The notes: generated by a model from the letters alone, not told the origin. DNA of 64,000 bases from Bacilli bacterium (GCA_022482735.1 JAKVOO010000001.1:55699-119698); one strand, 5' to 3'. Shown: positions 26,492 to 37,629, counted from the first letter of the stretch. A program made the numbers and translations.

Positions 26492-27055
26492 ATGAAAATG
26501 GATGATAAGTTATATGAAAAATTAAAAGGGTCTAAAACCGAAAAAAACTTGCATGAAGCTTTTGCTGGTGAGTCAATGGCCACGAACAAATACTTCTATT
26601 ATGCTGGCGTTGCCAAGAAGGCAGGTTATGAACAAATTGCCGATTTATTCTTAGAGACCAGTGGAAATGAGCGTGAACACGCGGAATTATGGTTTAAGTA
26701 TCTTCACGGTGGCACTAAAGGTGTTATGCCCGATGTCTTAGAAGATGCGGCTGCCGGTGAACATTACGAATGGACAGATATGTACGATCGGTTTGCCAAA
26801 GATGCAGAAGAAGAAGGGTTTTTAGAAATTGCTGCTAAGTTTAAAGGTGTAGCGGCGATTGAGAAAATTCATGAAGAACGTTATCGGAAGCTTGCTTCTA
26901 ACATTAAAGAAGGTATCGTCTTTGTGCGCGATGACGTTGTTGTTTGGAAATGCCGTGTCTGCGGCAATATCCATGTTGGCAAGTCCGCTCCAAAAATTTG
27001 CCCGGTCTGTGGTCACGAACAATCCTATCAAGAATTGCGCGCTACCAACTGGTAA
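26492..27055 (+). CDS. rbr: rubrerythrin
   Basis: Ferritin-like diiron motifs ([16 protein letters not shown]..., EEGF) plus a C-terminal rubredoxin CxxC...CxxC (CRVCG...CPVCG). The start is 26492 or 26498, after aggagg. Confidence 0.85.
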
Positions 27056-27314: not shown

Positions 27315-27375
<61 letters not shown>

Positions 27376-27390
<15 letters not shown>

Positions 27391-27450
27391 TCTAAACCTA
27401 GGAACCATCGAAGAAATTCGGTGGTTTTCTTTTTTCCAAAAACATAAAAA
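27376..27450 (+). repeat. attL-like direct repeat (last 15 nt of tRNA-Phe plus about 60 nt including the tRNA terminator hairpin)
   Basis: Near-identical to 34560-34636. Weaker similarity continues to 27553 / 34736. Confidence 0.85.
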
Positions 27451-27493
27451 AGGCGATTTTGGGCTAAATCGCCAAATGTCCGTGTGTCGGTTT

Positions 27494-27553
27494 TTATTTA
27501 ACTTTTTTCATAAACTTGTCATATCGCTTCCTTGATTCAATCAAATAAACATG
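27494..27553 (-). pseudogene. tyrosine integrase remnant (last 19 codons only)
   Basis: The reverse strand reads HVYLIESRKRYDKFMKKVK*. The C-terminus of the intact integrase at 34677..35519 reads HIDLIETRRRYDKFIHKKK*. Confidence 0.75.
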
Positions 27554-27644
27554 AATAATTATCTTTGCCGCATAAACTGAAGGATGATTAGATATCTATA
27601 TAGTTATCAAACAAAGAATCATACATCACTGCCCATATTTTGTT

Positions 27645-27826
27645 GTTCTTAATATTTGCTTGGTGATATACTTAAAATAATACTAAGGCACACTCAAATA
27701 ATTTAGTGCTTTGAAACATAACGGGGGTTATGAGCAATGAAAAAATCAAAAGCTAAAACGATTGGACCGAAATCAGTTTTAGTTGCGACTAAAGGAGAAG
27801 TCGTTTTAACTTCCTTTGGCCAAAAG
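27645..27826 (+). repeat. duplicate of the cas13d promoter / 5' UTR / first ~30 codons
   Basis: Aligns with 31229-31419, from atattttgttgttcttaatatttgcttgg... through ...acttcctttggc. The encoded peptide is MKKSKAKTIGPKSVLVATKGEVVLTSFGQK, versus MKKSKAKAVGLKSVLVTTKGEVLVTSFGKK in cas13d. Confidence 0.9.
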
Positions 27827-28459
27827 AGTATTAAGTCAGTGGCCCTGGCCTTGGAGACCGCATCAGAAATCATCTTGGCTGCGCTATCTATGGTTTTGAT
27901 TGTTGCTTTTGCTTTCAAGCCGATGCTTTCTTCGAAAAGAGTATTTTTTTCGACAACATCCAGCGGCTCGCCGTCCTTGGCAGTATCGGAAGCTATTGAA
28001 TATTCCTCTTCTGGTGAAAACGCTGCCTCTACGGTGGACGTGATGGTTGCCAACTTATATTACGGAACCAATTACGACGGAACGGTCGGGAAACTGAACC
28101 CCGGATACGATTTTCGGGCAATTACAATCTCCCTAGAGGAGTTGAACGGAAACGAAATTCTTCTTTCGTATCCAGTCGCCATCAATGAATACGGGAAAAT
28201 GGAGAACGGCATCCTTCGCGAGAATGTCCACAAAGTCATTAGGGATGATTATTCCCTAATCTATTCCTTTGACCTAAATGAAATTTTCCAAAACGACTAC
28301 GATGGGGTTATTTCCTTCGCCGTGAAATACGAGGAATCACGCTCGGATGTCATTTATTCGTTTGGGAAACGATTCTATTTTGATTTTTCGAAGGTTGGGG
28401 ATGTTGCAAAACTATCTGATTTTAAATGGGATTATTTCAGCGATGGCTACGCTGACTGA
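27737..28459 (+). CDS. chimeric ORF: cas13d N-terminal 30 codons fused to unrelated sequence (240 aa)
   Basis: The start and RBS are inherited from the duplicated cas13d 5' end. The remainder has no Cas13d similarity. The middle part (about 27835-28050) has an equally open antisense frame, so it is uncertain whether this ORF codes for anything. Confidence 0.4.
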   Translation: MKKSKAKTIGPKSVLVATKGEVVLTSFGQKSIKSVALALETASEIILAALSMVLIVAFAFKPMLSSKRVFFSTTSSGSPSLAVSEAIEYSSSGENAASTVDVMVANLYYGTNYDGTVGKLNPGYDFRAITISLEELNGNEILLSYPVAINEYGKMENGILRENVHKVIRDDYSLIYSFDLNEIFQNDYDGVISFAVKYEESRSDVIYSFGKRFYFDFSKVGDVAKLSDFKWDYFSDGYAD

Positions 28460-28475
28460 TTAGGAGGATTCACCT

Positions 28476-30980
28476 ATGAATATGAGCCTTGCCATAATTC
28501 TTACCATTTAGGCAGTTAGCGCCCGTATTGCTGGCTCCGACTTACAGCCATCAATTATAGCCGATATGCAAGACAATTCGGTATTGCGAAGCGTCACATC
28601 ATCTCAGGTGTCAGTTGCTTTTTTAGACGATTCGGTATCCTCTGGTAGCACAATTTCCGCTACTTTAGCACCTGCTACCCCAAGTGTTTCTCTTTCAATT
28701 CTAAATGCATCTCCTAATCTTGCGGTTTCACTGATAAACAATAACGACGGAACTTATACCACATTGTTGAACACGCCAGGAATTGCGGGGGAGTACATCG
28801 TTTCGCTCTTTTAAGAAAATGCCCCATCCATAGATGGTAATCCCGACGAAATTAGTTCCATCTATATCTATTCCGACGGCAACAACGACTGTGCTTCTTG
28901 CGTGTCAATGGATGAAGCGCATGGAAAGTATTATATGAATTATGTGGCATCGGAGACCGATAAGGTTTTGCTTGGAAAAGAAGAACAGACTGATGGTTTC
29001 ACATCGACGAAGACTCGATATGCAGCTGAGCAGGACTATGCCAATGCCACTTACGATGGGGGCGATATTGAAACTCAATGGAGCGTTTCATCAGCAAATA
29101 ATTCTGGAAAAGTAAAGGTGACGGGGAATGCCACTTGGTACGACGAGAACGAAGTCTCTCATCCATTGGTCGGAGTTAAGGCAATTTTGTGGGACGATGA
29201 TATTTTTTGGAATGAATATTGCGGATCTACATATACGGACAGCGACGGCTATTTTTCATTTGAAATAAGCAACCAAATATTTTTTGAATTAGGAGGAAGA
29301 GACCTTTTTGTGGCTCTTTATTCGGAAACTGACGCCGTTTTGGTAGAAAGTTTTTGGTGGGGAGAATACATCATGATGACGCCGCTTTTCACGAATGTTT
29401 TTAGCAATTCGCAAATCGAATTTGACATTGCAATCCACCCAGGAGTAAGCGATCGCGCGAATGCTTTTGAAATCACTCAAGCGGAGAACATACCTCACAA
29501 ATACATAAAGGATATGGATAATACCGATCTTCCTATGGTTCCTATCTTTTATCCAGCATTTGATGGGGAAGGATGCTATTATAACAACGTCTTAGATTAT
29601 CTTGCTATCGGATGGAAATTCTATCGGGATTGGGATTGCTTAAATCACGAATATGGTCATTTTATCAATGATCAATTGGACTTGTGCGACGACAGTGTTG
29701 GTGGTGACCATTACGTAGGCGAGGATCTGGTCAGCAGCAAAGGAAAGACCAACGGATTGAAGATGGCCATGTCTGAGGGATTGGCGAGTTATTTGGGGAC
29801 TGCCGCACAGATGTACTGTGGAACGGATCTTGGAGTGCCTAGGGTAGGAGATGAAATATACCATGCAGTGAATGGTGTTAACGAAAATTATGGCTTATAT
29901 CGATATGGTCAAGGTTTTGGTGTTGGCGGAGAGGGAAACGAATTTAGCGTCACCAGTTTGCTAATCAAACTTTTAGACGGAGAAATTCGTGCTAATGATT
30001 CAGTCGCCCTTGGGCATTCTGCAATGTGGAGTGCAATCAAATCATCAAATCATTGGTGCATTTCATCCCTTATTTCGACGATTATCTCTGCGCACGAAGA
30101 ACAAAGGAGTGCAATAGGGTTGATTCTCGAAAATGAGGGATTTGCGCCTATTCCCAGTGGCTCAGGCAATACATCTTTAGTTACCAACTCGAACAACCCA
30201 TGCTGGACTTTCTCTTGGGACGTGAACGGGTTTGATTCGGTTGATCCGGATTTGTTTGATTTGGTTTTTGAGGGATTAGACAATAGCACATTCACATTAG
30301 GTGGACTTACTACCACGAGTGTTTCCCTGACAGCGACTCAGGCTAATTCAGTCCTTGATTTGCCGGGTGATCTGGTTAGATGGCACGTTGTTGGATACAA
30401 TAGCGGCAGCCCAACTACTGGAGAATATTCAAGTTCTGATTTGGTTTCTAATGGTCCCTCGTCTTCAACTTTGATTAAGGATGTGTCCAAAGCATCTAAT
30501 CTGTCGGAAGGGGAAATTGAATGGTTCAGATTTACGGCACCTTATGCGAGTACTTTCTATTTCGAGAGTAGTGGTGGCATTGATATGTATGGGGAAATTT
30601 TCCCCGACTTCGTGGCCGACGGCACGCTATCTGGCAGGCTCGCTTATAACGATGATGGGGGCGTGGGACTTAATTACAAAATAGCCATCTCTCTCACCTC
30701 AGGTCAAACTGTGTATCTGAGATCAAGGGCTTATAATGCTTCCGCATCGGACAGTTATTCTATATTGGTAACCTCCGACCATGTTCATGATTATTCCGAC
30801 CATTATGATCAATATAGCTCTACTCAGCACAAATCGTGCTGTAGTTGCGGTGCCTATGTACTCCAGCCTCATATCTCCAATGGAATTGTGACCTGGGTTG
30901 GTATGCACAAATACACCAACTGCGCCCTGTGCGGTCAGCTCATTGATCTCAATACGACTCCTATTATCGTCGGTCCATAA
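28476..30980 (+). pseudogene. secreted HExxH zinc-metalloprotease-like protein with a C-terminal pre-peptidase (PPC)-like domain, two in-frame stops
   Basis: SD aggagg (28463-28468) precedes ATG 28476. In-frame TAG at 28509-28511 and TAA at 28812-28814, with the frame otherwise open to 30980. HEYGH motif, and a PPC-like block EGEIEWFRFTAP...YGEIF...LAYNDDGG. Confidence 0.6.
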
Positions 30981-31109
30981 GTTTTTATCGGAACAAGTAA
31001 CAACGGTGAGACTCGTTTAATATTAAGTTTTTAAGTTTCTTGTTATATCATCTAGAGAGGATTTTCGACTTAAGCATCTATTCTCAAAGCACTTAGGATA
31101 ATTTGGATT

Positions 31110-31129
31110 AGGACCTAGGGTCCTTTTTT
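31110..31129 (+). terminator. rho-independent terminator separating island cargo from cas13d
   Basis: Hairpin aggacc-tag-ggtcct followed by tttttt. Confidence 0.65.
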
Positions 31130-31249
31130 ACTTTTCTAAAGTGTCAGTTGTCTAACTCATTTGGTAATGGAAAAGACCGGATACTTGGCAAAAATTCGTG
31201 AAGTGCTGGCATATAAATAAAATAATCTATATTTTGTTGTTCTTAATAT

Positions 31250-31279
31250 TTGCTTGGGGTATATTTAAATTAATATTAA
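31250..31279 (+). promoter_or_regulatory. candidate cas13d promoter
   Basis: TTGCTT, about 18 nt spacer, TATTAA, inside the duplicated segment. A G-rich SD (ggggg) lies 8 nt before ATG 31330. Confidence 0.35.
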
Positions 31280-31329
31280 TGGACACTCAAATAATTTAGT
31301 TCTTTGAAACATAATGGGGGTTATAAGCA

Positions 31330-33987
31330 ATGAAAAAATCAAAAGCTAAAGCGGTTGGACTGAAATCAGTTTTAGTTACGACTAAAGGCGAAGTACTTGT
31401 TACTTCCTTTGGCAAAAAGGCGGAAGCCACGATTGAAAAGAAAATAATAAACAATAAGTTGGATAAAGAACATGACCCACCGACTTTTAGTCTTAATGTT
31501 GATAATTACGATTATAGATTAAAAAATAATACTGGAACTTTTTCGGCAGAAGTTGAAAATCCATTTCCTAGAAAGGAAAGCAATCGAAAAATTAGATGGA
31601 AGAATTGGCAAGAAGGGAAAAAGGAAAAGGGAGAGATTCCAACCATAAAAAGAACGATTGGAGATGATCAAATTTTTGCTAAAGCGGAGTTGGAAACAGA
31701 GTTTTTTGGCAAGCGGTATGAGGATAACATTCACATCCAAATTATTTACAATATATTGGATATTAGAAAAATACTTTCCCCCTACATCAATGATATTATT
31801 TATTCTATAAATAATTTAAATCGTGATTTAAATGTTGATGATGAAAAATCGGATATTTTTACGATTCGTTTTAGTGAAAATTATGAAAAGGCCAGCGATA
31901 GGATAAAGAATCTATTTGAAAAGTTTTATATTAATATTTCAAAAAATGGATACTATTCTAGTGCTTTTTATCATCAAGAAGGCGATAAATTTAAGTTTAA
32001 AAGTAAAATTGAGATATTTGATATTTTTAGACTATTAAGTGCGATTAGACAAGATGCCATGCATAGCTCAATAAGAAATAAAAATTGTGAATATAATGTT
32101 TTTTTTGATGAGAAAATGCTTCCTAATGATTTAAAAATTGTTCTTGATGGGTTATATTCACAAAAAGTTTATGAAACGAATAAAAGTTTTATCGAGTTAA
32201 ATAAGAGAGCAAACTTTTCTATTTTAGATAGCCTCTATTCTGATGAAAAAAACAAAGAAGCACTCTATCGCTTATTTTATGACTTTAATGTAAGGCAAGA
32301 GAATCTTAACTTAGGTTTTTCTATAAAGCGAATTCGCGAATGTTTACTTACACTAACCGATTATTCTGAGATAAAAAACAAGGACTTTGATAGCGAAAGA
32401 AGCAAATTGTATCATTTTTTTGATTTTGCTCTATATAAATACTATCTTAGCAACAATAAAATAGTTGATACTTTTGTAGAAAAGCTTCGCCAAAACATGA
32501 CCGATGAAGGAAAAGACAAACTCTACATTGAGCAAGCAAATGAAGTGGCTAATATTTTACATGATAAAGTTATTGATAGGCTTTTGCCGATGATGAATGG
32601 AGATGTAATAAAAAAATTAAATAGTGACTCGTTGAATACTAAAATTTCTGATCAAATAATTAATAGAATTAGAATAAATGATTCGGTTTCTTACTTTACT
32701 AAGTTGCTCTATTTTATGACTTTGTTTTTAGACGACAAAGAGACCAATGATATGCTTGCTAACATCACTAATAAGTTTGATAACATTATGTCCTTTATGC
32801 AGGTTTACAAGAATAAGGATAATGAATTTTTAGATGATGGCCTAAGCGATTTGCAAAATATGTATAAGGGACACAAACTAAATAATGGCAATCAGCAGAT
32901 TGTTTTCAGAGGTAAATATGCGCTTTTTAATAAAAATAATGAAATTGCCGATGAATTACGTATTTTGAAGTCAATTTCACGTTTTAAGCCGGCAGCAAAG
33001 ATAAGCCGTCAAATGATTCTTGATGCTGCTTATCTATTAGGATATAAGGAAGATGAGAACAGCGATCAAGTACTCACGAAGAAACTGAAGTTAGATGATG
33101 ATGGGAGTAAGGGGGCTAGAAATTTCTTAATCAATAATGTTGTTAAATCTAGACGATTTATCTATATCGCTCGGCATGTAAATCCTCGGAAAATTTGTGT
33201 AGTAGCGCAAAATGAACATGTGGTTAGGCTGGTACTAGAAAGACTTCCTCTTGAGCAGTTAACGCGTTACTATCAGGCGATTACTGGACTAGATTTAAAA
33301 GCACCACCTAAAATGATTGATAAACTGGTTCAAGAAATAAAATCAGTTAATCTAGAATCTTTTATCGATATCGACAATAAGGCATTATCTAGAGATAAGC
33401 AAATTATTAAAGAGCAAAAAAAGACCATAATCGGTTTATATTTAACAGTATTGTATCTTGTCTACAAGAATCTTGTTAATGTAAATTCGCGGTATGCAAT
33501 TGCCGTTTATACCCTAGAACGAGACTATGATATTAAATTTCCTAACGAAGAATTTGATTTTAAAAAACTAAATAATCAGTTGAAACTTTCAAATCTATTC
33601 ATTGAAAAAGGATATTTAAAAAAGAGACAAAGAGAAATATTGCAAAAAAATATAAGCGAATTAAGTAATGGAAGATTTTTTTCCTTATATAGGAATCAAA
33701 TCGCTCATTTGAACGCGATTAGGAATTTAGATAAATACATATCTAATGTTAAAGACATTAAAACATATTTTGGTTTATATCACTTTATCAGTCAGGCATT
33801 ACTTTGTGCTAAAATAGTAGAGTATTGCAAAGGCGACAATTCATTTCTTTTAAATCAAATTAAAGAATCTCAAAGAAGAGGTAAGTACTCAAAAAATGCT
33901 TTACACATTATTCATGTTCCCTTTGGATACAATCAAGCAAGATACAAGAATTTAAGTATTGAAGTCTTGTTTGATAAAAACAAATAA
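31330..33987 (+). CDS. cas13d: type VI-D CRISPR effector Cas13d (RNA-guided RNase, two HEPN domains), 885 aa
   Basis: Two R-x4-H HEPN motifs: RQDAMH (residues 240-245, nt 32047-32064) and RNQIAH (residues 788-793, nt 33691-33708). Blocks match my recollection of RfxCas13d/EsCas13d:
- N-terminal KSKAKAVGLKSVLV;
- IHIQIIYNILDIRKIL;
- NLGFSIKRIRE;
- FTKLLYFMTLFLDDKETNDMLANITNKFDNIMSF;
- ADELRILKS;
- ARNFLINNVVKSRRF;
- IIGLYLTVLYLVYKNLVNVNSRY;
- YFGLYHFISQ;
- VPFGYNQARYKNLSIEVLFDKN.
The gene is directly followed by a CRISPR array. Confidence 0.93.
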   Translation: MKKSKAKAVGLKSVLVTTKGEVLVTSFGKKAEATIEKKIINNKLDKEHDPPTFSLNVDNYDYRLKNNTGTFSAEVENPFPRKESNRKIRWKNWQEGKKEKGEIPTIKRTIGDDQIFAKAELETEFFGKRYEDNIHIQIIYNILDIRKILSPYINDIIYSINNLNRDLNVDDEKSDIFTIRFSENYEKASDRIKNLFEKFYINISKNGYYSSAFYHQEGDKFKFKSKIEIFDIFRLLSAIRQDAMHSSIRNKNCEYNVFFDEKMLPNDLKIVLDGLYSQKVYETNKSFIELNKRANFSILDSLYSDEKNKEALYRLFYDFNVRQENLNLGFSIKRIRECLLTLTDYSEIKNKDFDSERSKLYHFFDFALYKYYLSNNKIVDTFVEKLRQNMTDEGKDKLYIEQANEVANILHDKVIDRLLPMMNGDVIKKLNSDSLNTKISDQIINRIRINDSVSYFTKLLYFMTLFLDDKETNDMLANITNKFDNIMSFMQVYKNKDNEFLDDGLSDLQNMYKGHKLNNGNQQIVFRGKYALFNKNNEIADELRILKSISRFKPAAKISRQMILDAAYLLGYKEDENSDQVLTKKLKLDDDGSKGARNFLINNVVKSRRFIYIARHVNPRKICVVAQNEHVVRLVLERLPLEQLTRYYQAITGLDLKAPPKMIDKLVQEIKSVNLESFIDIDNKALSRDKQIIKEQKKTIIGLYLTVLYLVYKNLVNVNSRYAIAVYTLERDYDIKFPNEEFDFKKLNNQLKLSNLFIEKGYLKKRQREILQKNISELSNGRFFSLYRNQIAHLNAIRNLDKYISNVKDIKTYFGLYHFISQALLCAKIVEYCKGDNSFLLNQIKESQRRGKYSKNALHIIHVPFGYNQARYKNLSIEVLFDKNK

Positions 33988-33999
33988 CCTCATTTTGAG

Positions 34000-34299
34000 G
34001 TGCAACACCTGTGTAAAATTACATAGGTCTAAAACTGTAGACCATATTTTTTGTCAATGGCTTTGGTGCAACACCTGTGTAAAATTACATAGGTCTAAAA
34101 CGGCATTAGTTACTTCACTAGGAATATCGATGTGCAACACCTGTGTAAAATTACATAGGTCTAAAACTGGGCGATTAGTTTTTCGATTTTGCTTTCAGTG
34201 CAACACCTGTGTAAAATTACATAGGTCTAAAACTTGTGCATTTTTTATTTTTACAGAACTTGCGTGCAACACCTGTGTAAAATTACATAGGTCTAAAAC
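34000..34299 (+). CRISPR. CRISPR array: 5 identical 36-nt repeats and 4 unique 30-nt spacers (plus a possible 5th spacer and degenerate repeat at 34300-34364)
   Basis: The repeat GTGCAACACCTGTGTAAAATTACATAGGTCTAAAAC occurs at 34000, 34066, 34132, 34198 and 34264. It has an internal 7-bp hairpin (ACCTGTG/CATAGGT) and a 3' GGTCTAAAAC, like the recalled Cas13d repeat GAACTACACCCGTGCAAAAATGCAGGGGTCTAAAAC. Confidence 0.95.
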
Positions 34300-34559
34300 T
34301 CCGTACATAGAGCCACCAGTATGTATTAGAAAGAGTTTTGTTGAATGATTTATAGGTGTTAGTCAAATTTGTATGCAAAAAAATCAGCATAGTTTGTCAT
34401 GCTGAAATAAAAACTTAAATTATAAGTACTAGGCGACTAAATTTAGTTCTTTCAATAGAGTTAAATTATTTATTGCCTTTAACTAATTTTTCACCAAGAA
34501 AATGATGACAAATTAAGCCGAAAGTTAAACTATCTTTAAAAAATAGTTCGTCTAAGAAT

Positions 34560-34636
34560 CGGCTTGGGCCACCATCTAAACCTAGGAACCATCGAAGAAA
34601 TTCGGTGGTTTTCTTTTTTTCTAAAGCATAAAAAAA
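34560..34636 (+). repeat. attR-like direct repeat (partial tRNA-Phe 3' end plus downstream sequence)
   Basis: cggcttgggccaccatctaaacctaggaaccatcgaagaaattcggtggttttctttttt is identical to 27376-27435, and the similarity continues beyond it. Confidence 0.85.
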
Positions 34637-34676
34637 GCCCTATTTTTTAGAGGGCCATATAATCCGTGTGTCGGTT

Positions 34677-35519
34677 TTATTTCTTCTTATGAATAAATTT
34701 ATCGTATCTTCTTCTTGTTTCAATTAAATCTATATGAACATATCGCTTTGTGGTTTCAACCGATGTATGGCCAAGAACACGAGAGATCATAATTAAATCA
34801 GCTCCATTAGAATAAAGATTTGTTGTAAGCGTATGCCTAAGCATATGAGGAGATAATTTTTCGATTTTAAAACGCTTTCTCATTCGACCAAATATACATT
34901 CAACATTATTAACTGTTAACTGTTTTCCACTAGGTGTGCTAAACAAGAACTTATTCATTTTCTTTTGCTTTTTAACATACTGCTTTAACAAACGTGAAGT
35001 TCCAACTGTGTAATAAACATATCGCTCATGTTTTGTCTTTGTATGAACTAAGTAAACATATCTTTCATCAAAATTAATATCTTCTATTCGTATGTTTATT
35101 ACTTCACTTAACCTTGCTCCAGTGTCAACAAAAATCATAATTAGAACTTTGCTTCGCAAAGTTATTTTTGGAAATACATTACTAAACAATTCAGTTTGTT
35201 GCTTCTGATCTAAATAACCAAATGTTACAAAAGGAATACGCATATTCCTTATATTCTCAACACCAGGATGAACATCACTAAAACGACATGCTCTTTTAAT
35301 AAATCCTACTCGATGATTTAAAGTATTAGGACTAATACCACGTTCCCGTTCGGAAAATATATAATTGGTAACAAATTCTTTTGTTAAAGCACTAGAATCA
35401 ATGTTACCAAAAGTATTAATCAAGGTCTTTTTAATTGATAAATAGAACTTATATGTTCCGGGAGAATTATATAGTTTTTGTTCAATCAAATATAAATCAA
35501 ACAATTTATTAAGTTTCAT
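34677..35519 (-). CDS. int: tyrosine recombinase / phage-type integrase (280 aa)
   Basis: Catalytic signature ARLSEV (Arg), HMLRHT (His-x-x-Arg) and LGHTSVETTKRYVH (His...Tyr). The gene lies next to the partial tRNA-Phe repeat. Confidence 0.85.
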   Translation of the reverse strand: MKLNKLFDLYLIEQKLYNSPGTYKFYLSIKKTLINTFGNIDSSALTKEFVTNYIFSERERGISPNTLNHRVGFIKRACRFSDVHPGVENIRNMRIPFVTFGYLDQKQQTELFSNVFPKITLRSKVLIMIFVDTGARLSEVINIRIEDINFDERYVYLVHTKTKHERYVYYTVGTSRLLKQYVKKQKKMNKFLFSTPSGKQLTVNNVECIFGRMRKRFKIEKLSPHMLRHTLTTNLYSNGADLIMISRVLGHTSVETTKRYVHIDLIETRRRYDKFIHKKK

Positions 35520-35632
35520 TTTTAATTCCCCAATCTAATCATTTCTCTGCAATAATTTAAAACCCGAAGGTATATATTTCGGGCTTATATCAATAAATTG
35601 ACATTAAAAGAAAACTAATATAAAATAGTAAA

Positions 35633-35713
35633 CAAATGGAAGCTATGTCATTAACATATGCTTTCGCTCATCCCGTAAGGGAAGGGTGCCCGGGTACTTA
35701 CCGGGCTTTTTTT
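35633..35713 (+). ncRNA. candidate small RNA (about 80 nt) with its own promoter and terminator
   Basis: TTGACA (35598-35603), 17-nt spacer, TAAAAT (35621-35626). The terminator is gcccgg-gtactta-ccgggc plus T7 (35688-35713). Divergent from int. Confidence 0.4.
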
Positions 35714-35767
35714 AACATATTTGTCCCCTTTCTTGACAAATTTTTAAATATTTGATTTAATATAGGC

Positions 35768-35898
35768 GACCCCGGATAGTAATATCTTGTGCGGTCTGAA
35801 GCTAGCTTCGCGCTAGATTAGAGCTAGCCTGTGTGCTAGAGAGGCTTCAGTCTTAATTGGCTGCGGAATGAGCTAACCCGTCAAAGTGGCTCTTTTTT
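35768..35898 (+). ncRNA. candidate structured RNA (about 130 nt), class not recognised
   Basis: TTGACA (35733-35738), 17-nt spacer, TTTAAT. An outer stem gtctgaagc/gcttcagtc (35794-35802 / 35844-35852) encloses two hairpins with the same ctagc/gctag stems. The segment is G+C-rich relative to its surroundings and ends in a T-run at about 35893-35898. Confidence 0.35.
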
Positions 35899-36927
35899 AT
35901 TTCCATCGCGATTTTCGCGCCTTATAGTATTCTTTTAAATCATCGGGATGAAGTTTTTTTTACTTTGTTTACTGCATCTAATGGATGTTCTCCTGCTTTA
36001 AATCGATTACTTGTCAATTTAATTTTAGCAATGGTTTACGTATAAATATAGCTACCTTGCTATCTATTCGGATAAGTCTTGGTTAAAGGAACACTTTGCT
36101 TATTAGCTATTTGTTTGCTGGTTGCTTTTCTAATAATTTCAGAGATTTGAGCATACTGAGGGGCAGTTTTAACAACCGCCACTGGCCGACTATTACTAGC
36201 TTTTACTCCTTTCGTCCTAACATAGTTTGGCCAGTTCTTTGACAGCACACTTATACAGAGTTTTATAGGCCCAACCAGATGGATTATTCAAAATTGCAAT
36301 AAAAAATAAGATGTATTTAATAGATTTTTATGTGAAAAATAATTGTTGAAAATGTTGGTTCATAGGTTTTTTTAAATTAATTTTATGGCAAAAAAAACTT
36401 ATGCGAGAAAATTGAAATCATTGAATTTATAAAAATATTTTTTTATAGAACAAGTTCTGACATATCACTGCCATCATTAAATTGTTATGAAGTTTTGAAT
36501 CAAAGTGAGCATTAAAATATAGGATAAAAAATATTTTTAAACGGCACTACATTAAGCAATATATTGAATAATAGCTTAAATTAATTTGAGTATATTTATT
36601 ACATTCTCATTAAGTTTTTGATAGAAAATTATAAATAGAATAAATACAGTTTTATAGTCATCGATTAAAAAGATTAGCATGAATCTTAAAACGCCCAGTT
36701 TTAATTAAGCATATTTTTGTGGATTAGCACAAATAATCTATAAAAAGAAGCACTAAATAAAATATTTTTTTAGTTCTTTTCTATAATAATAAAACATATA
36801 TTAGCAGCAAATATAGCTTTGGTATTTGCTTTTGAATTTTAACTTATTCAAAAACATTTCTCTACTTTAATGTCTATTAGCGTGATAGAATATCGCTATC
36901 AAAGTTTTGATCTTTGATTAGTGCTCT

Positions 36928-37027
36928 TCATGAGTAGAAATGATGCGTCAAGTATCGTCAGATGGGAGGTTGCTGACGAGCGAAAGAAATCTTTGATTTC
37001 TGCGGTATCATTTCGCCATCCGCATGG
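36928..37027 (+). promoter_or_regulatory. THF (tetrahydrofolate) riboswitch aptamer
   Basis: TCATGAGTAGAAATGATGCGTCAAG...GATGGGAGGTTGCTGACGAGCGAAAG...TGCGGTATCATTTCGCCATCCGCATGG follows the recalled folT-motif consensus (GAGUAG-AUGAU-GCG...UGGGA...ACGA-GCGA...GCGGU-AUCAU...AUCCGC). The P1 stem is tcatg/catgg. Downstream, cctccc (37052-37057) can sequester the SD gagagg (37071-37076). Confidence 0.75.
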
Positions 37028-37083
37028 ACTAATTTAGTTTTGAGCATTAAACCTCCCCTGATACAAGAATGAGAGGTATTATC

Positions 37084-37629
37084 ATGGGGAAATCAAAAAT
37101 TATTCACCGCATCACCCTTGATGCTATGCTAGCCGCCCTTTATGTTGTCCTTGCTTATGTTACCATACCTATAGGCAATATTCGTCTTACAATTGCTTCG
37201 CTACCCGTAGCCCTTGCCTGCCTTGCTTTGGGTATTGGAGATGGGGTATCCGTGGCATTTCTTGGCGAGTTTATTAATCAGCTATTGAAGTATGGATTTA
37301 CTTTAACAACTCCGATTTGGCTGATTCCACCGATAATTAGGGCGCTTGTCATCGGATTGTTTGCTCATTTTTATCGTAAACAAGGTCAAAGACTCGAAAA
37401 TCACTATGTAATTTATTTCGTGGCTTTCATAGTTGCCGCTATTGTTACAACCGGAGCAAATACTTTAGCGTTATATCTTGACGCATTAGTATTTGATTAT
37501 CCGTTTGCCTTTGTGCTGTATGAGACGATTATTCGGTTTTTGACGGGTATTTTGACCGCAGTTTTGCTGGCCATTATCGCGCAACCATTATCAAGAATAA
37601 TTAGAAATTACACCTTTAGTCCTTCTTAG
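37084..37629 (+). CDS. folT: ECF transporter S component, folate family
   Basis: A roughly 180-aa 6-TM protein directly downstream of a THF riboswitch. ATG 37084 lies 7 nt after the SD. Confidence 0.7.
   Translation: MGKSKIIHRITLDAMLAALYVVLAYVTIPIGNIRLTIASLPVALACLALGIGDGVSVAFLGEFINQLLKYGFTLTTPIWLIPPIIRALVIGLFAHFYRKQGQRLENHYVIYFVAFIVAAIVTTGANTLALYLDALVFDYPFAFVLYETIIRFLTGILTAVLLAIIAQPLSRIIRNYTFSPS

What the first reader, a model, noticed from the sequence alone, without database searches (positions are those of the whole stretch)
27645..31419. Direct duplication of the cas13d promoter and first ~30 codons brackets a 3.6-kb foreign segment
Positions 27645-27826 and 31229-31419 are clearly homologous. 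They share the putative promoter, the 5' UTR, the SD, the ATG and the MKKSKAK..GxKSVLVxTKGEVxxTSFG peptide.

The upstream copy now drives a chimeric 240-aa ORF. It is followed by a visibly more G+C-rich segment encoding a decayed secreted metalloprotease.

This looks like the scar of a recombination or insertion event that used, or copied, the cas13d 5' end. Alternatively it is the remnant of a second, deleted cas13d copy.

The upstream copy could titrate regulators of cas13d or express a 30-residue Cas13d N-terminal peptide fusion.
Basis: seen in the sequence. Interest (0 to 1): 0.65.

Follow-up and report, generated by a model that had tools for sequence, protein, structure and literature searches.

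The report
Tandem tRNA-Phe cassettes sharing Cas13d head
The repeated Cas13d promoter and start are real, and they most likely mark two related mobile cassettes parked one behind the other at a tRNA-Phe gene: one still carries Cas13d, while the other lost its Cas13d body to a borrowed membrane-protein/protease operon that appears to run off the old Cas13d promoter.

Summary
Window 27635-27826 and 31229-31419 are 89.6% identical over 192 nt (E=8e-70). At least 13 independent assemblies show the same layout, so it is not an assembly artefact.

A 7,184-bp unit (27376-34559) is bounded by direct repeats of the last 15 nt of tRNA-Phe plus its terminator (60 nt perfect, 79 nt at 95%). It lies next to a tyrosine integrase gene and is precisely absent from sister strains.

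The upstream copy B is part of a ~450-nt "head": att core, terminator, 30-codon integrase remnant, Cas13d promoter, 5'UTR and 30 codons. A diverged relative (L001) has this whole head in front of cas13d, and separately in front of ORF240.

Segment X is the 3' part of an ECF-sigma / anti-sigma-like / HExxH-protein operon, cut inside the anti-sigma-like gene.

Best model: two sister integrase-less (CIME-like) cassettes accreted in tandem. B is the remnant of the one whose cas13d body was replaced, and it now supplies expression signals to ORF240 and the protease-like gene.

The protease-like gene is intact in several strains. The window allele carries two nonsense mutations.

Interest is moderate.

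The parts
27315..27390 (+). tRNA-Phe (GAA), intact. Its last 15 nt (27376-27390) form the att core.
   Evidence: ARAGORN; Rfam; the core is found exactly twice in the window.
27376..27454 (+). Outer direct repeat A: att core plus the tRNA terminator hairpin (27401-27428). The first 60 nt are identical to A'.
   Evidence: the repeat finder D4, 79 nt at 95%; 60-nt perfect run; terminator scan.
27496..27588 (-). Remnant of a tyrosine-integrase gene: the last 30 codons and the stop. 16 of 30 residues match the C-terminus of the intact integrase, and the catalytic-Tyr context is lost.
   Evidence: Alignments; translation.
27589..27634 (+). Spacer ('gap') between the integrase remnant and B. It belongs to the conserved cassette head.
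   Evidence: The segment tested as 'gap' (27566-27634) is 100% identical in L001:19397-19465 and 80% in L001:9836-9899.
27635..27828 (+). Copy B: Cas13d-type promoter-like region, 5'UTR, SD, ATG at 27737 and 30 Cas13d codons, fused in frame to ORF240.
   Evidence: Candidate promoter: my reading is -35 TTGTTC (27643-27648) with extended -10 TGATATACT (27664-27672); the scan gives TTAATA/TAAAAT. Neither is verified.
27737..28459 (+). ORF240, a chimera. Residues 1-30 come from Cas13d. Residues ~31-240 are homologous to P0096, the gene that follows an ECF sigma factor elsewhere. It has one predicted TM helix (residues 42-60) and a beta-rich C-terminal domain.
   Evidence: The same protein is seen on 23 contigs.
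28476..30980 (+). Large secreted HExxH protein ('MP', 834 codons). In the window it is broken by two in-frame stops (TAG 28509-28511, TAA 28812-28814). It has a C-terminal PPC domain.
   Evidence: intact alleles; HEYGH invariant; PPC domain, TMt 0.74.
30981..31228 (+). Tail of X, with a terminator-like hairpin (31110-31124). The junction X|B' lies at 31228/31229.
   Evidence: no counterpart in L001.
31229..31421 (+). Copy B': the promoter-like region, 5'UTR, SD and first 30 codons of the real cas13d. It lacks the A-gap part of the head that L001 keeps.
31330..33987 (+). cas13d (885 aa), with RxxxxH motifs at residues 240 and 788.
34000..34299 (+). CRISPR array: 5 repeats of 36 nt (GTGCAACACCTGTGTAAAATTACATAGGTCTAAAAC) and 4 spacers of 30 nt.
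34300..34559 (+). Array-distal trailer. Its last 52 nt (34507-34558) form an 'arm' next to the att core that is shared with another element.
   Evidence: 95% identical to L001:13302-13561. The arm alone recurs at L001:9587-9638, L003:6880-6931 and L004:299-350.
34560..34638 (+). Outer direct repeat A': displaced copy of the tRNA-Phe 3' end (34560-34574) plus terminator.
34677..35519 (-). Intact tyrosine recombinase/integrase (280 aa).
   Evidence: Pfam PF00589, E=3e-36; NCBIfam Xer-like hits below the equivalog cut-offs.
35520..36927 (-). Decayed remainder of the integrase-bearing element. It holds a frameshifted relic of a 138-aa gene (about 35900-36285) and a protospacer-like site (35846-35868).

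Best explanation
The two copies are the homologous 5' modules ('heads') of two sister integrative cassettes that sit in tandem at the 3' end of tRNA-Phe.

The ancestral cassette was: att core (last 15 nt of tRNA-Phe), terminator, integrase (later deleted to a 30-codon stump), Cas13d promoter, cas13d, CRISPR array, trailer/arm, next att core.

In one cassette (E2), everything after Cas13d codon 30 was replaced by the 3' part of a foreign ECF-sigma / anti-sigma-like / HExxH-protein operon. The break lies inside the anti-sigma-like gene. That gene therefore lost its sigma partner, its own promoter and its ~40-residue cytoplasmic N-terminus, and gained the Cas13d promoter, 5'UTR, SD, ATG and 30 codons.

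E2 and the intact cas13d cassette (E1) then came to lie side by side. In the window lineage a deletion removed E2's right end and the att-core-to-gap part of E1's head. That left only the 193-nt B' in front of cas13d.

The resulting 7,184-bp composite has no integrase of its own but keeps attL- and attR-type repeats, so it is CIME-like. It lies next to an element with an intact integrase that could move it.

What is shown: the repeat; the nested att repeats; the integrase stump; the full head in L001; the chimeric origin of ORF240; the native operon of X; the empty site; the extra element at the same core.

What is inferred: the order of events; that B acts as the promoter and start of ORF240-MP; that the integrase moves the unit.
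For: 1. B and B' are 89.6% identical over 192 nt with sharp edges.

2. The outer repeat A/A' begins exactly 15 nt before the tRNA-Phe end. It is perfect for 60 nt, and weaker homology continues into the 3' end of the integrase gene. The upstream copy keeps 30 codons of that gene, 16 of 30 identical.

3. Sister strains L021 (98.4% identical flanks, 795-kb contig) and L022 join tRNA-Phe directly to A'-integrase. They lack exactly the 7,184 bp.

4. In L001, cas13d (95.6% identical) is preceded by a complete collinear head: arm, core, A (93%), gap (80%), B' (94%). It is followed by array, trailer and core. A second head, A(55-190)-gap-B (97%, 100%, 99.5%), precedes ORF240 (99.4%) elsewhere in the same locus, in the opposite order to the window.

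5. L001's chromosomal flanks are only 81-89% identical to the window. The cassettes are therefore more similar than their hosts, which points to horizontal exchange.

6. L003, L004 and L026 carry a further gene block between tRNA-Phe and A. It ends in the same 52-nt arm plus core, so elements accrete in tandem at one att site.

7. ORF240 residues ~31-240 align with P0096 (60% identity). In 8 contigs P0096 directly follows, and overlaps, an ECF sigma factor gene (TIGR02937, 71.7 bits) and precedes an 832-aa MP homolog. X is ~71% identical at the DNA level to that operon, whose GC is 46-49%.

8. Terminators lie upstream of B (27401-27428 on +, 27473-27452 on -) and between MP and B' (31110-31124), so each copy needs its own promoter.

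9. The only metatranscriptome that detects the organism has 4 contigs in the island, all inside X. One spans the ORF240/MP junction. About 21% of X is covered, against ~4.5% of 20 kb of chromosome.
Against: - No full-length cas13d with a B-type N-terminus was found. All database N-termini of this Cas13d cluster are B'-type, so the 'lost' second cas13d is inferred, not seen.
- No E2 with its own right-hand arm was found.
- Excision or circularisation could not be tested, because only k=31 contigs were available and they break inside the 60-nt repeat. The single trailer-to-A junction contig (L005) could be a circle, a tandem copy or an assembler path.
- The empty site could also arise by RecA-mediated recombination between A and A'.
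- Promoter activity of B rests on consensus-like motifs and on sparse metatranscriptome contigs that may include DNA.
- JGI gene callers start the ORF at an internal Met (138 aa), so translation from B's ATG is unproven.
Confidence: 0.68

Rival explanations
1. In-situ duplication by Campbell-type integration. A circular DNA carrying X plus a ~193-nt fragment of a diverged cas13d 5' region recombined once with the resident cas13d 5' region. This automatically leaves the homologous segment as a direct repeat on both sides of X.
For: The repeat brackets X exactly and has sharp edges at both ends. The copies are 10% diverged, as expected if the incoming fragment came from another lineage. X is compositionally foreign.
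Against: In L001 the B-type copy has its own A-gap sequence (97-100% identical to the window's), while cas13d has a different, complete head (A* 93%, gap* 80%). Two full heads therefore exist, not one head split by an insertion. A Campbell event should leave reciprocal hybrid copies, but the B/B' differences are spread evenly over both copies.
Confidence: 0.14
2. One resident cassette duplicated its head locally (replication slippage or unequal crossing-over). The copies then diverged in place, and X arrived later between them by illegitimate recombination.
For: Direct repeats in the same orientation, 3.6 kb apart.
Against: B is 99.5-100% identical across hosts whose flanks differ by 11-19%, while B and B' differ by 10% in both hosts. 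The divergence therefore predates the present arrangements, and the copies travel separately. The order of the two units is inverted between L001 and the window.
Confidence: 0.08
3. The upstream copy is kept mainly as a regulatory decoy. It would titrate a repressor or activator of cas13d, or produce a Cas13d N-terminal peptide that acts on Cas13d. Its link to ORF240 would then be incidental.
For: An 18-nt block, ACACTCAAATAATTTAGT (an imperfect palindrome in the 5'UTR), is invariant in all four head copies compared. B is nearly invariant across strains.
Against: No regulator gene lies in the locus. The near-invariance extends equally over ORF240 and the tail of X, so it reflects recency rather than selection on B. 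The 30 codons show 7 replacements against 2 silent changes between the copies. This idea is not exclusive with the main model.
Confidence: 0.05
4. Assembly artefact: the two copies are a collapsed or mis-joined repeat.
For: None found. Logan contigs do break at the outer A/A' repeat, but not at B or B'.
Against: At least 13 independent assemblies from different samples and assemblers run straight through B, X and B'. The longest identical run between the copies is 29 nt, which is shorter than k=31.
Confidence: 0.01

Closest known systems
CIMEs (cis-mobilizable elements) and tandem accretion of integrative elements at tRNA genes, as in the ICESt1/ICESt3 family of Streptococcus thermophilus. Definition taken from PMC5704250.
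   Same: The unit is flanked by attL- and attR-type direct repeats of the tRNA 3' end. Its own integrase has decayed to a stump. It lies in tandem with a related element that keeps an integrase. Further elements pile up at the same core. It is a presence/absence polymorphism among strains.
   Different: It is very small (7.2 kb; the cas13d cassette alone is ~3.9 kb in L001). No conjugation or mobilisation genes are seen in any partner. The cargo is a type VI-D CRISPR-Cas locus. Excision and transfer have not been demonstrated.
Type VI-D CRISPR-Cas loci (Cas13d; Yan et al. 2018, PMC5935466).
   Same: The effector matches the family model over its full length, has two RxxxxH motifs, and stands next to an array of 36-nt repeats ending in GTCTAAAAC with 30-nt spacers. 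There is no cas1/cas2 in the locus, which (from my own knowledge, not checked here) is common for VI-D.
   Different: There is no WYL-domain accessory gene. The effector is 885 aa, shorter than the family median of 928 aa. It is only 38% identical to the nearest Cas13d outside its own cluster. It is carried between att repeats next to an integrase, and its 5' module is duplicated.
ECF sigma / anti-sigma operons with a co-transcribed extracytoplasmic target gene.
   Same: In the native context (L013-L020) the ORF240 homolog overlaps the stop of an ECF sigma gene. It has a short N-terminal cytoplasmic part and a single TM helix, followed by an outside domain. A secreted HExxH protein gene follows it.
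   Different: No recognised anti-sigma domain was detected (no Pfam or NCBIfam hit). In the window the sigma gene and the presumed sigma-binding N-terminus are gone, replaced by Cas13d sequence.
Promoter capture and in-frame gene fusion at a rearrangement junction.
   Same: A 5'-truncated gene acquires the promoter, RBS, start codon and first codons of an unrelated gene.
   Different: Here the donor is a CRISPR effector gene, and the fused product is a membrane protein. The fusion is fixed and nearly invariant across many samples and two host lineages.

Membership tests
Cas13d (type VI-D effector) | Full-length match to the family profile or to solved Cas13d structures | tested here: met
   NF038189 equivalog, 645 bits against a cut-off of 150, model 1-882 matched to residues 2-884. 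UrCas13d 6iv8 E=3e-110 and EsCas13d 6e9e E=1e-103.
Cas13d (type VI-D effector) | Two HEPN RxxxxH motifs | tested here: met
   RQDAMH at residue 240 and RNQIAH at residue 788.
Cas13d (type VI-D effector) | Adjacent CRISPR array with 36-nt repeats in crRNA sense (5' repeat, 3' spacer) | tested here: met
   Five 36-nt repeats at 34000-34299 on the same strand, 12 nt after the stop. Orientation follows the rule in PMC5935466.
Cas13d (type VI-D effector) | RNA-guided RNase activity | not testable with these tools
   Needs biochemistry or an interference assay.
Upstream copy B as a cas13d gene | Cas13d coding sequence beyond the N-terminus | tested here: not met
   Only 30 codons are Cas13d-like. 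From residue ~31 the ORF matches P0096 instead.
tRNA-gene integrative island / CIME | Direct repeat of the tRNA 3' end at both boundaries | tested here: met
   27376-27390 equals 34560-34574. The repeat extends to 79 nt at 95%, with 60 nt perfect.
tRNA-gene integrative island / CIME | Own integrase lost while the att sites are retained (this defines a CIME as opposed to an IME or ICE) | tested here: met
   A 30-codon stump at 27496-27588. No other recombinase ORF lies within 27376-34559.
tRNA-gene integrative island / CIME | Precise presence/absence among close relatives (an empty site exists) | tested here: met
   L021 and L022: tRNA-Phe joined to A'-integrase, with the 7,184 bp absent.
tRNA-gene integrative island / CIME | Neighbouring element with a functional integrase of matching specificity | tested here: inconclusive
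   An intact PF00589 integrase lies directly beside A', and its 3' end is homologous to the stump. Its activity and specificity were not tested.
tRNA-gene integrative island / CIME | Excision as a circle, or mobilisation with a partner | not testable with these tools
   Only k=31 contigs were available, and they break in the 60-nt repeat. The trailer-to-A junction in L005 is ambiguous.
ECF anti-sigma factor (ORF240 / P0096 family) | Gene directly downstream of, and coupled to, an ECF sigma gene | tested here: met
   Met for the homolog P0096 in 8 contigs (sigma identified). Not met for ORF240 itself, because no sigma gene stands upstream of it in the window.
ECF anti-sigma factor (ORF240 / P0096 family) | Recognisable anti-sigma domain (for example zf-HC2/RsrA-like) | tested here: not met
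   No Pfam or NCBIfam hit for ORF240 or P0096. 'Anti-sigma-like' therefore rests on position and topology only.
Zincin-type secreted metallopeptidase (MP) | HExxH motif conserved across homologs | tested here: met
   H361-E362-Y363-G364-H365 are invariant in 15 sequences.
Zincin-type secreted metallopeptidase (MP) | Catalytic-domain fold or profile match to a known peptidase family | tested here: not met
   No Pfam, NCBIfam or PDB sequence hit. Foldseek on a good model (pLDDT 83.7) recognised only the PPC domain.

The most novel reading that the evidence does not exclude
The ~450-nt head (att core, terminator, integrase stump, Cas13d promoter and start) is a portable 'integrate-and-express' module for a family of integrase-less mini-cassettes. 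These cassettes would swap cargo (a Cas13d-CRISPR unit, or a sigma-less membrane-protein/protease operon), be moved in trans by a neighbouring integrase, and compete for one tRNA-Phe site with a larger, abundant mobile element. A sister lineage's Cas13d array carries a spacer that matches that element family (30/30 in L023). That would make this an element-borne RNA-targeting CRISPR system used in a contest between mobile elements for an integration site.
Probability: 0.15. Interest if true: 0.7.

Novelty: new member of a known kind. Interest (0 to 1): 0.42.

Why it matters
Type VI-D systems are usually described as chromosomal loci of gut Firmicutes. Here a compact Cas13d and its array sit between tRNA att repeats beside an integrase. 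They are present in some strains and precisely absent in others, and they are more conserved across hosts than the hosts' own flanks. This gives a concrete, testable route for horizontal spread of an RNA-targeting CRISPR system on a ~4-7 kb integrase-less cassette.

The duplicated 5' module records how such a cassette changes cargo: a Cas13d promoter and start codon were re-used to express a foreign operon that had lost its own sigma factor. For annotation, the case shows that a short 'second Cas13d start' can be a cassette remnant rather than a gene. It also shows that the nearby 'pseudogene' is a segregating polymorphism rather than old decay.

Tried and rejected
- An orphan CRISPR-repeat-like match at 26515-26538 (D3) lies inside a rubrerythrin ORF (homolog annotated). 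I treat it as chance.
- The A-A' spacing (7184) is twice the B-B' spacing (3593). I looked for a hidden 3.59-kb periodicity and found no in-register homology, so this is coincidence.
- Pfam, NCBIfam and PDB sequence searches gave nothing for ORF240 or MP.
- Foldseek on the MP model recognised only the PPC domain. The ORF240 model was too poor to search (pLDDT 63.7).
- PHROGs on the ten genes of the extra block in L001 gave one weak hit, so calling it a prophage is not justified. Its 738-aa protein and the arm-plus-core pattern are absent from IMG/VR.
- A B-specific pattern and the core-plus-terminator pattern both gave 0 hits in the GTDB species representatives. The B pattern gave only one JGI contig, L024, which repeats the window. 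No new cargo and no B-type cas13d was found.
- All N-terminal Cas13d fragments in the 90% cluster are B'-type.
- The nearest outside Cas13d (38% identity, L025) has cas1-cas2 and HTH genes but no integrase on its 7.5-kb contig, so the island context is not shown to be general.
- Read-level tests for a circle or an empty-site junction failed because only Logan contigs were held for every run.
- Literature searches found no report of Cas13d on a tRNA-integrating island or CIME. This is absence from a partial library, not proof of novelty.

Full report
OBSERVATION

Window 27635-27826 aligns with 31229-31419 over 192 columns, with 19 mismatches and one indel (89.6% identity). blastn within the window gives E=8e-70.

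Each copy holds a promoter-like stretch, a ~100-nt leader with the SD GGGGG, an ATG (27737 / 31330) and 30 codons. Ten of 102 non-coding positions differ. Ten of 90 coding positions differ, giving seven amino-acid changes and two silent codon changes.

The downstream copy opens a true Cas13d of 885 aa:
- NCBIfam equivalog NF038189 scores 645 bits, with model positions 1-882 matched to residues 2-884.
- The solved UrCas13d and EsCas13d structures match over the full length.
- RxxxxH motifs lie at residues 240 and 788.
- A five-repeat array of 36-nt repeats follows 12 nt after the stop.

The 30 duplicated codons therefore correspond to the very N-terminus of the family profile. The upstream copy is in frame with a 240-aa ORF (27737-28459).

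The same B-X-B' arrangement is present in L003-L012, L024, L026 and L027. These come from NCBI MAGs, JGI assemblies (one contig of 1.478 Mb) and Logan contigs of separate runs from anaerobic digesters and sludge. The longest identical run between the copies is 29 nt, too short to confuse a k=31 assembler. An assembly artefact is excluded.

THE LARGER STRUCTURE

A second, outer pair of direct repeats brackets everything. Window 27376-27454 and 34560-34638 are 95% identical over 79 nt, and the first 60 nt are perfect. This repeat starts exactly 15 nt before the 3' end of an intact tRNA-Phe (27315-27390) and runs through the tRNA's terminator. The 14-nt core occurs only at these two places in the window.

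To the right of the second copy lies a 280-aa tyrosine recombinase on the minus strand (34677-35519; PF00589, E=3e-36). Weaker homology between the two repeat copies continues into the 3' end of that gene. On the tRNA-proximal side only the last 30 codons survive (27496-27588), and 16 of 30 residues are identical to the integrase C-terminus.

The order in the window is:
- tRNA-Phe
- core and terminator (A)
- integrase stump
- 46-nt gap
- B
- X
- B' and cas13d
- CRISPR array
- 260-nt trailer
- core and terminator (A')
- integrase
- about 1.4 kb of decayed sequence
- THF riboswitch and folT

EMPTY SITE AND ACCRETION

Two sister assemblies join tRNA-Phe directly to the A'-type sequence and the integrase: L021 (a 795-kb JGI contig, 98.4% identical in the flanks) and L022. 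The 7,184 bp from 27376 to 34559 are missing, and the boundary lies inside the perfect 60-nt repeat.

Conversely, L003, L004 and L026 carry an additional block of uncharacterised genes between tRNA-Phe and A. That block ends in a 52-nt stretch that is 94% identical to the last 52 nt of the trailer (34507-34558), followed by the core.

One att core therefore receives several elements that share the arm next to the core. This is the pattern of site-specific tandem accretion described for integrative elements in tRNA genes (PMC5704250).

THE HEAD

In L001, cas13d is 95.6% identical to the window's. L001 is a MAG whose folT and flanking DNA are only 81-89% identical to the window. There cas13d is preceded by a complete, collinear head:
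- arm and core
- A (93%)
- integrase stump
- gap (80%)
- B' (94%)

It is followed by a longer array, the trailer (95%) and again the core.

Further right in the same locus, a second head precedes ORF240 (99.4%). It consists of A positions 55-190 (97%), gap (100%) and B (99.5%). Its first 24 nt stand 5.7 kb to the left, in front of an insert that carries a resolvase gene and a peptidase S8 gene.

Four conclusions follow:
- Two full heads exist.
- They belong to two separable units: E1 with cas13d, and E2 with ORF240.
- The two units stand in the opposite order in L001 and in the window.
- Both units are more conserved between the two hosts than the hosts' own DNA.

In the window lineage, the E1 head has been cut down to the 193-nt B'. 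The cut lies just upstream of the promoter-like region. That is the outcome expected to persist, because it keeps cas13d expressible behind the terminator that follows MP (31110-31124).

WHAT X IS

ORF240 has only two database relatives. P0096 (252 aa) is 60% identical from ORF240 residue ~31 to the end. Homology starts right at the fusion point, while the first 30 residues match Cas13d instead.

In eight contigs P0096 overlaps the stop codon of a 157-aa ECF sigma factor gene (Sigma70_r2/r4_2; TIGR02937, 71.7 bits) and precedes an 832-aa homolog of the window's large ORF. X is ~71% identical at the DNA level to that operon from 28197 to 30964. The operon's contigs have 46-49% GC, against 42.9% for X, 36.0% for the window and 29.8% for cas13d.

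X is therefore the 3' part of a foreign sigma-ECF / anti-sigma-like / secreted-protein operon, cut inside the second gene. The sigma gene, its promoter and about 40 N-terminal cytoplasmic residues are missing. B replaces them. ORF240 keeps one strong hydrophobic helix (residues 42-60) and a beta-rich outer domain.

'Anti-sigma-like' is an inference from gene position and topology. No anti-sigma domain was detected.

The large protein belongs to a small uncharacterised family (20 database hits). An HEYGH motif is invariant in the 15 homologs aligned. The AlphaFold model is good (pLDDT 83.7), but PDB comparison recognises only a C-terminal pre-peptidase (PPC) domain. 'Metalloprotease' therefore remains a reasonable but unproven label.

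The gene is not generally decayed. It is an intact 834-codon gene in L003, L004, L007 and L008. Two C-to-A nonsense changes (TCG to TAG at codon 12; TCA to TAA at codon 113) occur in all four combinations among eleven assemblies that differ at five or fewer other sites.

HOW IT MOST LIKELY WORKS

B supplies the only evident expression signals for ORF240 and MP:
- Terminators lie upstream of it on both strands.
- The native sigma-dependent promoter is gone.
- The fusion is in frame.

One anaerobic-digester metatranscriptome holds four small contigs from the island. All lie inside X, and one spans the ORF240 stop and the MP start. About 21% of X is covered, against about 4.5% of 20 kb of neighbouring chromosome. 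Nothing covers cas13d or the integrase gene. This is a hint only. Contig presence is a poor measure of expression, and DNA carry-over cannot be excluded.

JGI gene callers start the ORF at an internal Met (138 aa), so translation from B's ATG is unproven.

The composite 7.2-kb unit fits the definition of a cis-mobilizable element: att sites retained, own integrase lost. The neighbouring integrase is the obvious candidate to move it.

One Logan contig (L005) joins the trailer directly to A. That is what a circle or a tandem copy would give. However, contigs from the other runs laid on the window break inside the 60-nt repeat, and no raw reads were available. Mobility today is therefore unproven.

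RIVAL MODELS

A Campbell-type single crossover of a circle carrying X plus a 193-nt cas13d fragment would also leave a bracketing repeat. It does not explain why L001 has two complete and different heads, or why the B-type head there has its own A-gap sequence.

In-place duplication followed by divergence is contradicted by two facts. B is near-identical across hosts that differ by 11-19% in their flanks. B and B' differ by 10% in both hosts.

A decoy role for B cannot be excluded. An 18-nt imperfect palindrome in the leader is invariant in all four head copies compared. Nothing else supports this idea, and there is no regulator gene in the locus.

COMPARISON WITH KNOWN SYSTEMS AND NOVELTY

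The effector is a member of Cas13d by every sequence test. It is a divergent one: the next relative outside its 90% cluster is 38% identical. It has no WYL accessory gene and no cas1/cas2 nearby.

The island architecture matches tRNA-integrating islands and CIME accretion. The fusion is ordinary promoter capture. What is less ordinary is the combination: a type VI-D locus as the cargo of a 4-7 kb integrase-less cassette, with a documented empty site and cross-host conservation. A cargo swap also left the Cas13d start attached to a membrane protein.

I found no report of this in the searchable literature. That is weak evidence of novelty. I rate it a new member of a known kind, of moderate interest.

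Noticed in passing
window 35846-35868; L001:13037-13066; L023:9653-9682; L004:8888-8910: One spacer of the Cas13d array in L001 matches 30/30 in L023, a strain 98.7% like the window. The match lies in the decayed region next to the integrase. It is 23/23 in L004 and 22/23 in the window. Its sense implies a target RNA made from the window's minus strand, the same direction as the integrase and the gene relic beside it.
   Followed up: partly
window 35727-36100 and 34507; runs X1 and X4: Contigs at about 10 times the genome's depth (534-748 against 57 in X4) cover this stretch. They join it in opposite orientation to the 52-nt arm at 34507. An abundant element in digesters therefore shares both the arm and this sequence. 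About 35900-36285 (minus strand) is a frameshifted relic of a 138-aa gene found in L001's extra block (69% identity over 110 aa).
   Followed up: partly
window 28509-28511 and 28812-28814: Two C-to-A nonsense polymorphisms in the 834-codon HExxH gene occur in all four combinations among 11 assemblies that otherwise differ at 5 or fewer sites. This implies recombination or recurrent knock-out, and possibly selection against the gene's expression.
   Followed up: partly
L006:3925-6582; L005:4199-6727: cas13d itself is broken in some strains. It is split into 89 + 765 aa in L006 and called as only 842 aa on L005. Fragments of 89 and 151 aa are in the protein cluster.
   Followed up: no
window 34000-34299; L004:6976-7342; L001:12671-13300: The three arrays (4, 5 and 9 spacers) share no spacer, although cas13d is 95.6-98.5% identical and no cas1/cas2 lies in the locus. 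Either spacers turn over fast using adaptation genes elsewhere, or whole arrays are exchanged.
   Followed up: no
L005:1-434: A Logan contig joins the trailer (34316-34559, 100%) directly to A (27376 onward, 100%). This is the junction expected of a circular or tandem 7,184-bp unit. It cannot be told apart from an assembler path through the 60-nt repeat.
   Followed up: partly
L001:1-9638; L003:1-6931: A block of at least 15 genes with no family matches (one weak PHROG hit to an Ig-domain structural protein) sits between tRNA-Phe and the cassettes in some strains. It ends in the shared arm plus core. It is absent from IMG/VR.
   Followed up: partly
window 27703-28053 (minus strand): JGI annotation calls a 116-aa antisense ORF here and starts ORF240 at an internal Met (138 aa), while NCBI calls the 240-aa fusion. 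Gene finders disagree over the B-derived part.
   Followed up: no
L013:6600-7637: In the native sigma/P0096/MP context, a 346-aa protein with faint WYL and weak WCX hits lies about 1.6 kb downstream. WYL proteins are the usual Cas13d accessories, so this may be coincidence or a shared island neighbourhood.
   Followed up: no
window 36928-37027: A THF riboswitch (65 bits) stands in front of an ECF-transporter S component (folT-like, 37069-37629). It marks the chromosomal right border of the island region.
   Followed up: no
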